Shown in pieces: positions 9,921 through 64,000 of a stretch of 64,000 nucleotides of DNA (positions are counted from its first letter, which is position 1; each line of letters starts with the position of its first letter). Source of the DNA: Eledone cirrhosa (lineage: Eukaryota). A program made the translations under genes and the position numbers. The stretch spans positions 334,118,001 through 334,182,000 of the forward strand of contig OZ024741.1 in the NCBI GenBank assembly GCA_964016885.1. The letters run 5' to 3'. The notes below the pieces were generated by a model. The model searched no databases, was not told where the DNA came from, and saw nothing but the letters and a program-made list of their open reading frames with translations.

Positions 9921-10597
9921 ACATATATATGTATATATATATATATGTATATATATATGTATATACATATATATGTATATATATATATATGTATATATAT
10001 ATGTATATATATATGTATATATATATGTTAATATATATATATGTATATATATATATATGTATATATATATATATGTATATATATATATATGTATATATAT
10101 ATATATGTATATATATATATATGTATATATATATATGTTTATATAAGTTGAAAAAAATGAAAACGAAATTTCATTTCTCACTCTTAGTATGGCACTTACT
10201 TAAATGTAAGTATGTATGTATACGTACATACATATATGTATACAGACGTACAGTAGCATGCATATATATATATATATATATATATATATACATATATATA
10301 CACATATGCATACAGGTACACATACATATATGCACGCATCAGTTTAGCCGGTGTTTATTATAACGCCGGCCGCTTTGTTCGTTTGTTTGTCAACAAAGCG
10401 AACAGCCTGAATTTATGCCATACGGTGTTAAGGCAACCACGTCACCTTTTTGTTCAACACTGACACTTTTCAACTTATCGTTTTCTGTATGCCTGACCGA
10501 TTTAACTCACTCAATATGCAAATTAGGCTGCTCAGCCGTTAATTTTCATAAGGAAAGTATATACTTTCGAACGTTCAACTATCTGGCAGATGGGTAA

Positions 10598-10640
10598 ACG
10601 GTGCTGATGATAGCTAACAAGCTTGAAACTAGTACATCGT
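10598..10640 (+). ncRNA. Minimal type I hammerhead ribozyme (module C, copy 1)
   Basis: ACGGTG-CTGATGA-TAGCT(aaca)AGCTT-GAAA-CTAG-TA/CATCGT; palindromic ACTAGT stem III; GUA site. Confidence 0.88.
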
Positions 10641-11085
10641 TCCTGTGTCAGTGTTGAATAAAAAGGTGACGTGGTTGCCTTAACACCGTATGGCATAAAT
10701 TCAGGCTGTTCGCTTTGTTGACAAACAAACGAACAAAGCGGCCGGCGTTATAATAAACACCGGCTAAACTGATGCGTGCATATATGTATGTGTACCTGTA
10801 TGCATATGTGTATATATATGTATATATATATATATTTATATATATATGCATGCTACTGTACGTCTGTATACATATTTGTATGTACGTATACATACATACT
10901 TACATTTAAGTAAGTGCCATACTAAGAGTGAGAAATGAAATTTCGTTTTCATTTTTTTCAACTTATCGTTTTCGGTATGCCTGACCGATTTAACTCACTC
11001 AATATGCAAATTAGGCTGCTCAGCCGTTAATTTTCATAAGGAAAGTATATACTTTCGAACGTTCAACTATCTGGCAGATGGGTAA

Positions 11086-11128
11086 ACGGTGCTGATGATA
11101 GCTAACAAGCTTGAAACTAGTACATCGT
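11086..11128 (+). ncRNA. Minimal type I hammerhead ribozyme (module C, copy 2)
   Basis: Identical to 10598-10640. Confidence 0.88.
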
Positions 11129-12055
11129 TCCTGTGTCAGTGTTGAACAAAAAGGTGACGTGGTTGCCTTAACACCGTATGGCATAAATTCAGGCTGTTCG
11201 CTTTGTTGACAAACAAACGAACAAAGCGGCCGGCGTTATAATAAACACCGGCTAAACTGATGCGTGCATATATGTATGTGTACCTGTATGCATATGTGTA
11301 TATATATGTATATATATATATATATATATATATATATATATATATATATGCATGCTACTGTACGTCTGTATACATATATGTATGTACGTATACATACATA
11401 CTTACATTTATGTTTATATATATATGTATATATATATATATATATATATATATGTATATATGTATATATATATATGTATATATGTATATATATATGTATA
11501 TATGTATATATATATATGTATATATGTATATATATATGTATATATGTATATGTATATATGTATATATATATGTATATATGTATATATATATGTATATATA
11601 TATGTACTTATATATGTATATATATATGTATATATATATATATATATGTATATATATATATGTTTATATATATATGTATATATATATATATATATATGTT
11701 TATATATATATGTATATATATATATGTTTATATATATATGTATATATATATATGTTTATATATATATGTATATATATATATGTTTATATATATGTATATG
11801 TTTATATATATGTTTATATTTATATATATGTTTATATATATATATATATATATATATATATATATATATATATATATATATGTTTATATATATATGTATA
11901 TATATATATATGTTTATATATATATGTATATATATATATGTTTATATATATATGTATATATATATATGTTTATATATATGTATATGTTTATATATATGTT
12001 TATATATATATATATATATATATATATATATATATATATATGTTTATATATATGT

Positions 12056-60199: not shown

Positions 60200-61650
60200 C
60201 TAATGGATACAACTTACACTACCAGAACTTTTAGGTTTATAATAAAAGTAAGAATTAGAAATGGCGTGGGGGCAGGAAGAGAATATCTCAGACTTTCTAT
60301 TAAGTAAGGGTTCCCTAGAGAAAATTATAGAGTGGGTCTCAAGGATACAGAGATTACAGAATTTAGTGTGCGTTGATAGGTTATTAGAGCGTGCTACTAT
60401 TCGCCAATTAAGGCTATATGGTATATTAGCCCCCTTAAGATCCCAGATATGGTGTGCTAAAGAAGTAGAATTCTTAAACTTAACATGTTTAAAATTAGAG
60501 ATATGAGAATTAAACCTCGTCTTAAACGTGTTAGATGTTGAGCCTATATATGTGCTATAAGAGGAATTAGTTTTAATTACACAAGCATAAACGATGTTCC
60601 TAGCGAGGCAGTTACCGTTTAAAGGGCAGTTAACACTCACTCTACAGTTACACTTCCGGGTGCTATTAATCGGCTGAAGTAGTGATGCATCACTCGTAGG
60701 GTTACTATGAGATAAGGTCTGCTCGGGTGGTAAGGCATTTATGGATCTATCCAGACTAGTAGTACGCAGGGAGGAGTAGCCGTCCCTAATTTTCCCATTG
60801 TTAGTGCTAGCTAAATGAGAACTAATATTCGGGGTGGTAGAGAATGATAGTTTAATTACATTTTCATTAAAAATACCATGGTATTTATTAGTAGGAGGGA
60901 AATTTTTCTCTAAGAGAGAAAAGAAAGACCTAGGGATGTTAGTTAATACTTCCTGATCATATGGCGGGTTAAAATAAGTATTTAGTCTCGTTCTATTTCT
61001 ATCCTTACCAACTCTACCGTTATCTAATATCCCATTATTAAGATCTGGGTTACTACTATGACTAGCTAAAACCACATTATTAGAATCAGCCGAAACCCCG
61101 TTGAGTCTCTTTCTGTTTCTACCTCTAGTATATCTACTGCTATCTGGAATCATATCAATAGGATTAGGGCTAATAATAGGATCAGTAGAAACAACACTAT
61201 TAGAATTAGATTTAGCAAAAGCATTACCACTGAGTGAGCGCTTGGAGCTCCCAACTTGATACCTAGAACTATTAGATTCCCTATTACGAATCCGGTGGTT
61301 TACTTATGGATGGGTTCGGATACACCTATGTGATTTCTACGATTCTTATGCTTTCTACTCCCATTCATGGCCATATTATGGGATATTATGTTATTATTAT
61401 TATATGTAAGCGGAGACTTTCTAAGGTTACTATTATTATAATGTATTTTACCAGAGTAACCGGAGTTAGCTAGGGCATTATTATAGTACTCTGCATGTGC
61501 ATTAACTATTCCTATGTCCTTAGAGAGTGTGGAAATTCTATTAGATACACCATTAATTATAGAGCTTATCATAGATTTGGGGTGGTTAGAATTGGGACTA
61601 ACATAAGAGAGTATTTCATTAGGCTTATGGAAGGGTTTAAAACTATTAAA
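60200..61650 (-). pseudogene. PLE RT thumb, linker and GIY-YIG endonuclease fragment (frameshift near 61300)
   Basis: FNPPY, CNCR..CPLNGNCL, IVY..YIGST..FKTRFNSH, CNLC..E, LNRKSE..CPH; homologous to 20257-22578. Confidence 0.9.
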
Positions 61651-61895
61651 ATATTATATTATATTATATTACATATAGTACTGTAATTCTCGCTTTATAT
61701 CACCACTTGTGTTTAGTTTTAGTTTTCGCATTGTACTATATTTGTAATATGGTTCAAAATGTTATTCATTTCCTTAGCAATTTTTACTTGATAATTTTTA
61801 CTTGATAATTTTCCTATGCTTTAATGTATGTATACTCCATATTCTTCTGAGTTTTTGGCTTGTATTGGCCGATAGTGCTTCTTATAACTTTACTT

Positions 61896-61933
61896 GCCCT
61901 GATGAGTCCTTAATAGGACGAAACATTGTTGGC
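61896..61933 (+). ncRNA. Canonical minimal type I hammerhead (PLE C inverted arm); the copy at 58453-58489 (-) lacks one A of GAAA
   Basis: GCC-CTGATGA-GTCCT(taat)AGGAC-GAAA-CATTG-TT/GGC. Confidence 0.9.
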
Positions 61934-62529
61934 TAATAAAGACTTTTGATGTATTGAAGGCTTCTTTGGTTTATTTTCATAATATATATATATATATTTT
62001 TATATATATATATATTTATATATATATATATATTTGTATTTATATATATATATTTATATATATATATATATATATATATATATATATATATATATATATA
62101 TATATATATATATATATATATATATATATATATATATTTATATATATATATATATATATTTATATATATATATATATTTATATATATATATATATTTATA
62201 TATATATATATATTTGTATATATATATATATATTTATATATATATATATATTTATATATATATATATACATATATTTATATATATATATATTTATATATA
62301 TATATATATATATATATATATATTTATATATATATGTATATATTTATATATATATATATATATATATATATATATATATATATATATATATATATATATA
62401 TATATTTTATATATCTATATCTATATATATATATATATATATTTATATATATATATATATATATATATATATTTATATATATATATATATATATATATAT
62501 TTATATATATATATATATATATATATTTA

Positions 62530-64000
62530 TATAATAAAATATTAAACAAATAATGAATAAACAATTCCTTATATTAAACAAAAAAAGTTCATTATTTAAC
62601 GATCGTTTCTAGGGTATATATGTGTTATAATTGGTATGCATATTCAACAGATCTATGTACAAAATTATACAAAATTATACAAATTATCAAGATTAAATAT
62701 ACATACCAAACACATATATACGCCGTCTTCAGAAATAATGAAGTATATTTATTGATAATAACAACAATTCAAAATTTCAGTTCAAAATTGACCAATGAAA
62801 ACACAAAGGGTTAAAAGCAGTTCGGTGTGTGTATATACATGTAAAACCCTTACACATATTTTACAAAAATGTATGTATAATTTGTATACGCATACTAAAA
62901 AGATGGATGCAAACACAAAATTTCAAGGTTAATATCTCTGTAAGCTTACCATGCGCAGATAAGATGCGCATTGATACTTATGGAGTCAAGTATATAAATA
63001 TATTTTTTCATACTCACACATATCAGTACAATCACACATACACGCGCGTATATGCATAAATATACACATAACCACGAACATACAAACACACACACACCCC
63101 CACTCACATTTATATATGTGGATATAAAATCATAAGCACATGGATATTAATTCACTCACATAAAACACTGGCACACACATTTCTAGATCAAGATACAGAA
63201 ATTAGGTGGGAGGGGGGGAAGGGGTCAGTATTCAATTGTCTGAGCAGACTGCCTAATATAAATGTATCTATAAATTAAGAAAAATAAAAAAATAAAACAA
63301 TAAAATATAATAAATATAATATAATATACATACGCATACAGATATATACACATACATACATGTACGCGCACATAGAAATATTTACGCATACACACATACA
63401 CACATACATATACAGTCATACACACATATACACTTACACGAACATACACATACACATATATAAAGATATATATATACACACACACACACACGCAACACAT
63501 TCACACATACACATATATATAAAAAATAAATAATAAAGATATATATCCATATATATATATACACACACATATATATATATATATATATATATATATATAC
63601 ATATACATACACATACATCTAAATATACATACACATACATACACACATACATGTACATACATGTACATACATATACGCACATCGATATACATATATATAT
63701 ATATATATATATATATATATATATATATACACATATAGACATATAGATACATACACACACAACTTACATACACACATATATATATATATAGATGTACATT
63801 CATACATAGAATTAGATATATAATCATACATACATATGCACCTACTTATACTCATATATATAAATACATACGCTTCCATATATGCGTATATACATAAAAA
63901 ACACTACAACCTCACCTAACCCAGACATACAAATAAAAATAATAATAAAAAGGCATATGTATATACATACACACACGCATTAATAGAGATATATATATAT
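62530..64000 (-). mobile_element. Probable 3' end/pLTR of a further PLE or HHR module (K), possibly running off the window
   Basis: HHR near the left end, followed by a (CA/TA)-rich segment reminiscent of the PLE B pLTR composition. Confidence 0.5.
62588..62742 (-). ncRNA. Type I hammerhead with 13-bp stem II and ~82-nt loop
   Basis: Reverse strand: TTCATTATTT-CTGAAGA-CGGC-GTATATATGTGTT(loop)AACACATATATAC-CCTA-GAAA-CGATCG-TT/AAATAATGAA. Confidence 0.75.

What the first reader, a model, noticed from the sequence alone, without database searches (positions are those of the whole stretch)
10145..62742. A set of non-coding, hammerhead-bearing, TA-embedded mini-elements (retrozyme-like) beside autonomous Penelope elements
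Seen: at least seven sequence types (C, D/D2, E, F, G, I, J, plus K and fragments C', H and 44.2 kb), unrelated by eye except E/F. Most are 300-600 bp units in short tandem arrays with one type I HHR per unit, and nearly all sit inside (TA)n. D, C and E/F recur at separate loci, so they are dispersed families. Established: PLE pLTRs carry minimal type I HHRs, and metazoan non-LTR retrozymes are tandem HHR repeats processed to monomeric linear/circular RNAs, proposed to be mobilised by PLEs. Inference: these are non-autonomous parasites of PLE RT/GIY-YIG like the intact one at 20257-22578. Their diversity, density and larger unit sizes here may be undescribed.
Basis: partly seen in the sequence, partly recalled or inferred. 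Interest (0 to 1): 0.92.

Follow-up and report, generated by a model that had tools for sequence, protein, structure and literature searches.

The report
Ribozyme mini-elements hijacking Penelope retrotransposons
This animal genome carries at least eight families of short, non-coding repeats, each with a predicted self-cutting RNA motif; their insertions carry the same two-ended footprint as the Penelope retrotransposons beside them, so they are likely copied by Penelope enzymes, probably from a single circular RNA.

Summary
The window holds 31 type I hammerhead (HHR) motifs in 12 sequence types (shuffles: about 0). Eight types are non-coding families with 310-989 bp units, dispersed genome-wide, young, and inserted in (TA)n: non-LTR retrozymes. 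The new evidence is in the insertion sites. Each family has two fixed 3' ends (a, b) downstream of the cleavage site. Two-armed, outward-facing insertions use one a and one b end in 131 of 136 classifiable cases. The coding PLEs here do the same (PLE2: 9 of 9). This matches the PLE-specific 'tail' between two internal RT start sites (PMC11167929). All units of both arms usually share one haplotype (minor alleles in both arms: 126 of 155, against 17% permuted). Best model: a PLE RT/endonuclease dimer primes both target strands at a and b on one HHR-made circular monomer and rolls around it. Cleavage, circular RNA and the partner PLE are untested.

The parts
10143..11410 (.). RZ488 insertion (unit 488 bp here, about 510 elsewhere): minus arm 10143-10466 ending at b (+356 nt after cleavage), plus arm 10467-11410 ending at a (+298); HHRs 10597-10641 and 11085-11129 (+), U.U at base of stem II, palindromic stem III
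17830..23672 (.). PLE2, coding Hydra-type PLE: inverted truncated arm 17830-19101 (outer end lost in the N gap), pLTR-ORF-pLTR 19101-23672, ORF 20257-22578 (773 aa), unit 3583 bp; HHRs 19936-20052 and 23519-23635 (88-nt stem II); end a at +42
26168..27938 (.). RZ593 insertion: minus arm 1745 bp ending at a (+76), plus arm 26 bp ending at b (+245); three HHRs (cleavage 26244, 26837, 27430) with U3-A8 core and 57-nt stem II
28287..29202 (.). RZ317 insertion: minus arm 287 bp ending at a (+141), plus arm 629 bp ending at b (+172); three U3-A8 HHRs (cleavage 28428 -, 28735 +, 29030 +); Rfam HH9 31.1 bits, below the gathering score
29389..31207 (.). RZ310 insertion: minus arm about 1449 bp (4.7 units) ending at b (+170), plus arm about 365 bp ending at a (+130 to +137); six HHRs with U.U at base of stem II
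33096..33549 (.). Decayed relative of RZ488 (87-89% identical), no HHR passing the scan
37176..38008 (.). RZ480 insertion: minus arm 645 bp ending at b (+184), plus arm 190 bp ending at a (+79); HHRs 37355-37438 (-) and 37851-37934 (+), 53-nt stem II
44242..44600 (.). Decayed member of a third family of the 310/317 clade (79-81% to both); closer relatives elsewhere repeat at about 314 bp
48389..50120 (.). Second RZ593 insertion (591-bp variant): minus arm 471 bp ending at a (+79), plus arm 1264 bp ending at b (+245); three HHRs (cleavage 48468 -, 49284 +, 49875 +)
50371..50907 (.). RZ533 truncated two-armed insertion: minus arm ending at b (+263), plus arm ending at a (+129); HHR 50689-50788 (+), U3-A8, 45-nt stem II, long stem III; tandem 533-bp units in other loci
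55203..56586 (.). RZ548 insertion: minus arm about 451 bp ending at a (about +67 to +77), plus arm 917 bp ending at b (+195); three HHRs (cleavage 55277 -, 55856 +, 56391 +), 51-nt stem II, GUU cleavage triplet
57128..58000 (+).
58305..61976 (.). J: 5'-truncated coding Hydra-type PLE (GIY-YIG frame 60200-61303, minus) ending at b (+152), with an inverted pLTR arm 61651-61976 ending at a (+51); not a mini-element
62535..64000 (-). K: 3' UTR/pLTR of a coding Hydra-type PLE family (6.4-kb unit); HHR 62588-62742 (116-nt stem II), end a (+61); one arm of a 4.8-kb inverted pair whose other arm, beyond the window, ends at b (+198)
1438..7243 (.).

Best explanation
These are non-coding tandem repeats, each unit with a predicted type I hammerhead, that show two fixed 3' ends and outward-facing inverted arms in (TA)n, and are likely copied in trans by Penelope-like (probably Hydra-clade) RT/GIY-YIG proteins from a predicted unit-length, probably circular, RNA.

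Steps. (1) Inferred: an array is transcribed; the HHRs (stem III short and in most types palindromic, so probably cutting as dimers) release monomers, which are ligated into circles. (2) Inferred from PMC11167929: a PLE protein dimer binds the RNA 40-360 nt downstream of the cleavage site and nicks both strands of a (TA)n target. (3) Shown as a footprint: one arm ends at site a and the other at site b (131 of 136), with short TA/AT microhomology to the target; read as one target strand priming at a and the other at b. (4) Inferred: both RTs run around the same monomer, giving multi-unit arms of one haplotype with variable 5' ends. (5) Inferred: the two cDNA ends are joined head-to-head, often through microhomology, giving [TA]n <-- --> [TA]n. 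If one arm is lost, a plain tandem array remains.
For: HHR reality. Positions 3 and 8 are Watson-Crick (295 C-G, 209 U-A) in 504 of 513 hits when all 16 combinations were allowed.

Non-coding and free-standing: longest stop-free frames are 46-91 aa. Of 229 insertions, 39 had a PLE-ORF hit within 1.5 kb; in 37 of these a TA run of 8 nt or more lay between.

Two-end rule: 276 events were mapped and 46 dropped by a k-mer density filter. Of 166 two-armed events, 158 had both ends in view: 131 a/b, 4 a/a, 1 b/b, 22 with an end at neither site (P = 4e-33 against 50%). Of 59 one-armed ends in view, 56 were at a or b.

Same rule in coding PLEs: PLE2, 9 of 9 loci with both ends in view among 20 fetched; J, 7 of 7 among 21 (b preselected by the query); K, 4 loci. 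PMC11167929 ties the tail to two internal RT start sites, shows both strands cleaved and extended, and calls the tail unique to PLEs. Hydra-clade PLEs nearly all insert into (TA)n.

One template: at family-polymorphic columns, copies within an arm agreed 1199 times and were mixed 45 times (five families). Minor alleles were shared by both arms in 126 of 155 cases (115 loci), against 17% mean and 26% maximum in 500 permutations; 31 locus-private variants were present in every copy of both arms. Unit junctions at the cleavage site kept their length in 380 of 393. Units fold strongly as circles (z -3.4 to -10.2, 25 shuffles each).
Against: Cleavage, transcription and circularity were not measured. 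In PMC11167929, HHR mutants did not affect insertion in vitro and no reads ended at the cleavage site. In the 2026 preprint only 1 of 9 retrozyme dimers cleaved. No unit has non-trivial sequence similarity to the window's PLE ends, so the partner is unassigned; PLE1 (Neptune-like) shows two ends too. Between-arm divergence exceeds within-arm divergence in every family, most in RZ593 (1.12% vs 0.49%; between loci 1.31%), and 29 of 155 minor alleles are in one arm only. Only 19 of 131 events are non-nested, against 30 expected by permutation, so fold-back copying may contribute. 5' ends are modestly enriched near the cleavage site (47 of 332 vs 31.9 expected), suggesting some linear templates. 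Sites a and b were defined from the same data, and loci are top BLAST hits (young, at least one full unit). Monomer MFE folds mostly lack stem III, and the RZ989 HHR fold is not the MFE.
Confidence: 0.62

Rival explanations
1. PLE-mobilised retrozymes, but the template is a linear multimeric transcript (or a cleaved monomer re-used by template jumping), primed at a and b in different units; the HHR is dispensable for insertion and arrays regrow by DNA recombination or jumping.
For: PAc uses unprocessed RNA in vitro. 5' ends are slightly enriched at the cleavage site. A homogeneous parent array would also give one haplotype per insertion.
Against: A linear template can only shorten an array, yet insertions reach about 13 units. 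30 rare variants are fixed in all of 3 or more copies of a locus, and 31 private ones in both arms, which needs re-expansion from one unit. Junctions are mostly clean (380 of 393). The catalytic core is conserved.
Confidence: 0.22
2. One priming event; the inverted arm arises by fold-back self-priming of the cDNA (related to the self-priming proposal in PMC3846280) and is captured at the second site.
For: Explains the shared haplotype. Arm-arm junctions have microhomology more often than chance (51 of 141 with 2 nt or more, vs 18%). 112 of 131 events are nested.
Against: 19 of 131 events cannot be nested in either direction. A fold-back copy that passes several a and b sites has no reason to avoid a/a or b/b, yet these are 5 of 136. 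PAc extends both target strands in vitro.
Confidence: 0.1
3. The units are solo pLTR pieces of undiscovered coding PLEs or DNA-level satellites, or are mobilised by LINE (RTE/CR1) machinery.
For: True for J and K. Only the top 25-40 hits per family were scored, so a rare coding parent could be missed. LINEs are present in the window.
Against: Head-to-tail HHR-to-HHR periods of 310-989 bp leave no room for an ORF. No case of a unit serving as the pLTR of an ORF was seen in 229 insertions (two close contacts, L251 and L257, were not resolved further). Fixed paired ends in TA across many contigs do not fit satellite drift, and LINEs have one 3' end (recalled).
Confidence: 0.06

Closest known systems
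Metazoan non-LTR retrozymes (Cervera & de la Pena 2020, PMC7229834; Li, Clavereau & Pollet 2026, bioRxiv 10.64898/2026.07.22.740005)
   Same: Non-coding tandem units with one type I HHR each, GC under 50%, structured, dispersed as monomers to multimers, co-existing with PLEs; the circle-to-tandem-cDNA model and PLE candidacy were already proposed there.
   Different: In the parts read, the PLE link rests on shared HHRs, co-occurrence and pLTR similarity; the word 'inverted' does not occur in PMC7229834, and fixed paired ends are not described. Here the insertions carry the PLE footprint, target (TA)n, have PLE-type HHRs (five of eight families with 45-96 nt stem II) and show no detectable pLTR similarity to the PLEs tested.
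Hydra-clade PLEs (Craig et al. 2021, PMC8557442)
   Same: (TA)n targeting, HHRs, partial tandem plus inverted 5'-truncated copy with a tail at one end; PLE2, J and K carry the clade's motifs.
   Different: The mini-elements encode nothing. Tails here are 27-168 nt (published: 30-40). PLE2 (3.6 kb) and K (6.4 kb) are longer than the clade's usual under 3 kb.
Poseidon_Ac in vitro system (Frangieh et al. 2024, PMC11167929)
   Same: Two internal RT start sites downstream of an HHR, both strands cut and extended, AT-rich target, predicted dimer.
   Different: It saw no strand difference in start site and no homology to the target; here the two arms of one insertion almost always use different sites, and the sites have short TA microhomology.
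Non-autonomous Chlamys PLEs such as MRC1 (PMC8557442 passage)
   Same: Non-autonomous, multicopy head-to-tail PLE derivatives.
   Different: Green algae; Chlamys mostly lack canonical HHRs, and these elements resemble autonomous partners at their 3' ends.

Membership tests
non-LTR retrozyme | type I HHR in every tandem unit | tested here: met
   Rfam HH9 only below the gathering score for RZ317 and no hit for RZ310
non-LTR retrozyme | short non-coding units in tandem (published 51-972 bp), GC under 50% | tested here: met
   units 310-989 bp, frames 91 aa or less, GC 0.32-0.42 for seven units; RZ989 is slightly above the range
non-LTR retrozyme | dispersed copies (mobility) | tested here: met
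non-LTR retrozyme | self-cleavage of monomer or dimer | not testable with these tools
   bench assay needed
non-LTR retrozyme | unit-length linear and circular RNAs in vivo | tested here: inconclusive
   no RNA holder listed
PLE-mobilised element | tail: two alternative 3' ends downstream of the HHR | tested here: met
   seven families; for RZ989 only one end was established
PLE-mobilised element | partial tandem plus inverted 5'-truncated copy | tested here: met
   166 of 230 retained events are two-armed
PLE-mobilised element | sequence similarity to the pLTR of an autonomous partner | tested here: not met
   only low-complexity or very short matches to PLE1, PLE2, J and K ends; other PLE families of the genome not tested
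Hydra-clade PLE (for PLE2, J, K) | RWK, DKT, CxCX5C linker, CxxC and CxH motifs, C-terminal GIY-YIG, (TA)n target | tested here: met
   read by eye from translations against the list; K has RWR for RWK; for J only the endonuclease-side motifs were read in protein; no tree built
Hydra-clade PLE (for PLE2, J, K) | generally short (under 3 kb) | tested here: not met
   units 3583 bp and about 6.4 kb
plant LTR retrozyme | type III HHR in LTRs, PBS/PPT, 4-bp TSD | tested here: not met
   type I HHRs, tandem units, TA-embedded ends

The most novel reading that the evidence does not exclude
PLE integration is a coupled two-strand reaction: one RT/GIY-YIG dimer opens a (TA)n target and starts one RT at site a and the other at site b on the same hammerhead-made RNA circle, both rolling with strand displacement. 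This single mechanism would explain pLTRs, tails and inverted-tandem copies of autonomous PLEs and the spread of animal retrozymes. The genome holds dozens of such circle families, one of which gains telomerase-like reiterated (TC)n at its start site.
Probability: 0.45. Interest if true: 0.85.

Novelty: new variant of a known kind. Interest (0 to 1): 0.62.

Why it matters
What mobilises animal retrozymes, and how PLEs make their tandem/inverted copies, are both stated as open in the papers read. The insertion footprint gives direct genomic evidence that PLE machinery does the first, and the strict a/b pairing plus shared haplotype constrains the second. The system is testable: intact, near-identical Hydra-type PLE proteins (PLE2; K family) sit beside 310-590 nt candidate templates with start sites mapped to a few bases. 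It also supplies about 48 natural HHR types, many with long stem II inserts. The class itself is known, which caps the score.

Tried and rejected
Rfam on the whole window: the 150 rows shown of 359 were miRNA/snoRNA-type matches to TA repeats and hairpins, none a hammerhead; narrow scans gave sub-threshold HH9 hits only.

Pfam found nothing in 5 of 5 PLE frames.

Expression: no RNA holder listed. Contigs from 4 of the 6 listed runs, all of unknown kind, cover RZ593; in two runs it is one contig of 620-621 nt closing on itself. A tandem DNA array explains that equally well, so it is not used as evidence.

J as an endonuclease-only element: rejected. K as a mini-element: rejected.

Search for a partner PLE by pLTR similarity: negative. 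One of the five protein queries in that call was a low-complexity frame picked by mistake and contributed nothing.

Assembly fold-back artefact: rejected, because arms differ in length and end at different fixed sites.

RT-made (TA)n arrays: considered and not supported by eye at RZ593, where both flanks have the same strand polarity; not tested systematically.

A structural link between a and b: none evident in circular MFE folds, beyond AU-rich, often unpaired context.

A random genomic background for density was not obtained, so whether the window is unusual genome-wide stays open.

Earlier scan findings: none. Lunse et al. 2017 was not held (seen only as a reference line).
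Full report
SETTING. The window is G000:C2:334118001-334182000 of a 3.0-Gb assembly with 1796 contigs. The organism is not given; size and TA-richness suggest an octopod (my recall, untested). The window is a pile of insertions in long (TA)n arrays. Names below are mine, by unit length (RZ = retrozyme).

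OBSERVATION. A structure-based scan found 29 type I HHRs, against a mean of 0.15 in 20 shuffles. With stem II up to 150 nt there are 31 in 12 clusters: 24 motifs in eight non-coding families (RZ310, 317, 480, 488, 533, 548, 593, 989) and 7 in four coding PLE families (PLE1, PLE2, J, K). Stem III is short and in most types palindromic, the form described as dimer-cleaving. Three families have a U3-A8 core and two a U.U pair at the base of stem II; both variants are published. Five non-coding families have 45-96 nt stem II inserts. In 140 loci, positions 3 and 8 were Watson-Crick in 504 of 513 hits. Rfam gave only sub-threshold HH9 matches. Monomer MFE folds recover stems I and II in most cases but rarely stem III, and not the HHR fold for RZ989.

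FAMILIES. All eight are dispersed, with 25 to 4171 first-look candidates; the best full-length hits are mostly 93-100% identical. Candidates are not copy numbers. Stop-free frames are 91 aa or less. Of 229 insertions, 39 had a PLE-ORF hit within 1.5 kb; in 37 a TA run lay between, as expected for independent insertions into shared targets, and two (L251, L257) were not resolved. J and K, in contrast, are truncated coding PLEs. PLE2, J and K carry Hydra-clade motifs; PLE1 has a Neptune-like linker (label inferred). PLE2 copies are 99-100% identical, so the family is very young. Across 1.83 Mb of fetched, partly overlapping, TA-biased loci there were 48 HHR clusters. The window's 12 types per 64 kb compare with one non-focal type per 9.3 kb in 140 other loci.

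INSERTION FOOTPRINT. Mapping every copy to unit phase showed two fixed 3' ends per family, in nt after the cleavage site: RZ488 296/355, RZ593 78/246, RZ310 130/164, RZ317 141/168, RZ480 79/188, RZ548 73/192, RZ533 129/264. I set these sites and tolerances (6-11 nt) after seeing the data. Of 276 mapped events, 46 were dropped by a k-mer density filter. Of the rest, 166 are two arms joined head-to-head with 3' ends pointing outwards, 61 are one-armed and 3 are complex. Among 158 two-armed events with both ends in view, 131 are a/b, 4 a/a, 1 b/b and 22 have an end elsewhere. TA-alternating flanks follow 125 of 148 a ends and 112 of 145 b ends, and junctions show a few bases of TA/AT microhomology. 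The coding PLEs obey the same rule: PLE2 (+42 and about +150), 9 of 9 loci with both ends in view among 20 fetched; J (+51/+152), 7 of 7 among 21, b preselected; K (+61/+198), 4 loci. PMC11167929 shows that a PLE protein cuts and extends both strands of AT-rich DNA and starts RT at two internal RNA sites, that the sequence between them is the genomic tail, and calls this signature unique to PLEs. A tail on one of the two inverted pLTRs is known qualitatively. RZ989 showed one fixed end (+189) and mostly single arms.

TEMPLATE. Divergence within an arm / between arms / between loci: RZ593 0.49/1.12/1.31%, RZ317 0.29/0.35/0.70, RZ480 1.10/1.40/2.21, RZ310 0.19/0.24/2.37, RZ533 2.20/2.98/4.32. 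At inherited polymorphic columns an arm was uniform 1199 times and mixed 45 times. Minor alleles were shared by both arms in 126 of 155 cases, against 17% after permuting arms, and 31 locus-private variants were in all copies of both arms. So each insertion usually descends from one unit haplotype that was re-expanded to as many as about 13 units. Unit junctions at the cleavage site are length-exact in 380 of 393, and 5' ends are only weakly enriched there (47 of 332 vs 32). This favours rolling on a ligated circle, as proposed in PMC7229834, over template jumping, but does not exclude a linear multimer. Fold-back copying cannot produce 19 of 131 events, though permutation expected 30; part of that gap may come from requiring one full unit per hit. 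At RZ548's b end, 19 of 33 terminal junctions carry (TC)5-22, while all 54 internal copies have (TC)2, suggesting reiterative copying at initiation (inferred).

MECHANISM. Shown: HHR motifs, non-coding tandem units, dispersal, TA targets, paired a/b ends, the same rule in coding PLEs, one haplotype per insertion. Inferred: cleavage, circularisation, dimer priming at a and b, rolling RT, end joining, and the identity of the partner. Confidence that PLE machinery mobilises them is about 0.9; in the full two-RT, one-circle model about 0.6.

KNOWN VERSUS NEW. The class, its size range (51-972 bp) and the PLE hypothesis are published. Seven literature searches and the passages read showed no report of the PLE tail and inverted footprint on retrozymes, of near-strict a/b pairing, of shared haplotypes across arms, or of cephalopod retrozymes; a 2026 octopus repeat annotation has no occurrence of 'ribozyme'. 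Most subscription papers are not covered. What I saw: bioRxiv 10.64898/2026.07.22.740005 parts 1-3 of 5 (main text; supplements not seen); PMC7229834 parts 2-3 of 6, the Discussion and passages (Fig. S9 not seen); PMC11167929 parts 1-2 of 4; PMC8557442 passages, section 11 and four supplement rows (its Hydra HHR file was not seen and may show long stem II forms); PMC4209133 part 1 of 4; passages only of PMC3846280, PMC3088659, PMC13282606 and PMC8490949; Lunse 2017 as a reference line only. Dfam and Repbase were not available.

VERDICT. Real; retrozymes of a known class, with insertion-site evidence that ties them to PLEs and constrains the PLE mechanism. New variant of a known kind; interest 0.62.

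Noticed in passing
RZ548 b-end junctions, e.g. L143, L145, L151, L161: (TC)5-22 is added between the element and (TA)n in 19 of 33 terminal junctions but in 0 of 54 internal copies; possibly telomerase-like reiterative copying at RT initiation.
   Followed up: partly
loci L001-L411: 36 further HHR clusters not in the window, many with 44-107 nt stem II inserts or U3-A8 cores; coding status unknown.
   Followed up: no
window 43700-43815: Short two-armed remnant of another HHR-type family (72-80% relatives in L054, L224, L260, L262).
   Followed up: partly
L197: The inverted arm of a J-family PLE appears to join part of its own HHR to a different family's HHR-like sequence; possible template switch (by eye).
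   Followed up: no
window 33614-36784 (-): Uninterrupted 1056-aa endonuclease-RT frame of a LINE (RTE-like label recalled); other LINE fragments at 8716-9913, 12061-13903, 14717-16705, 38097-40348 and 51109-55081.
   Followed up: no
window 43480-43600 and 43996-45894: tRNA-like SINE head (by eye) and several copies of a hairpin-forming short repeat, including a near-perfect 72-nt hairpin at 44091-44162.
   Followed up: no
window 17621-17820: 200-N assembly gap hides the outer end of PLE2's inverted arm.
   Followed up: no
window 7244-33092 versus 50115-62533: TA arrays switch from G-interrupted to T-interrupted types along the window.
   Followed up: no
PLE2 loci L391-L410: Autonomous PLE2 insertions have arms longer than one 3583-bp unit, on both sides in L393-type and L398/L408 cases at least one or both, hinting that the coding element may also be copied from a circle.
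   Followed up: partly
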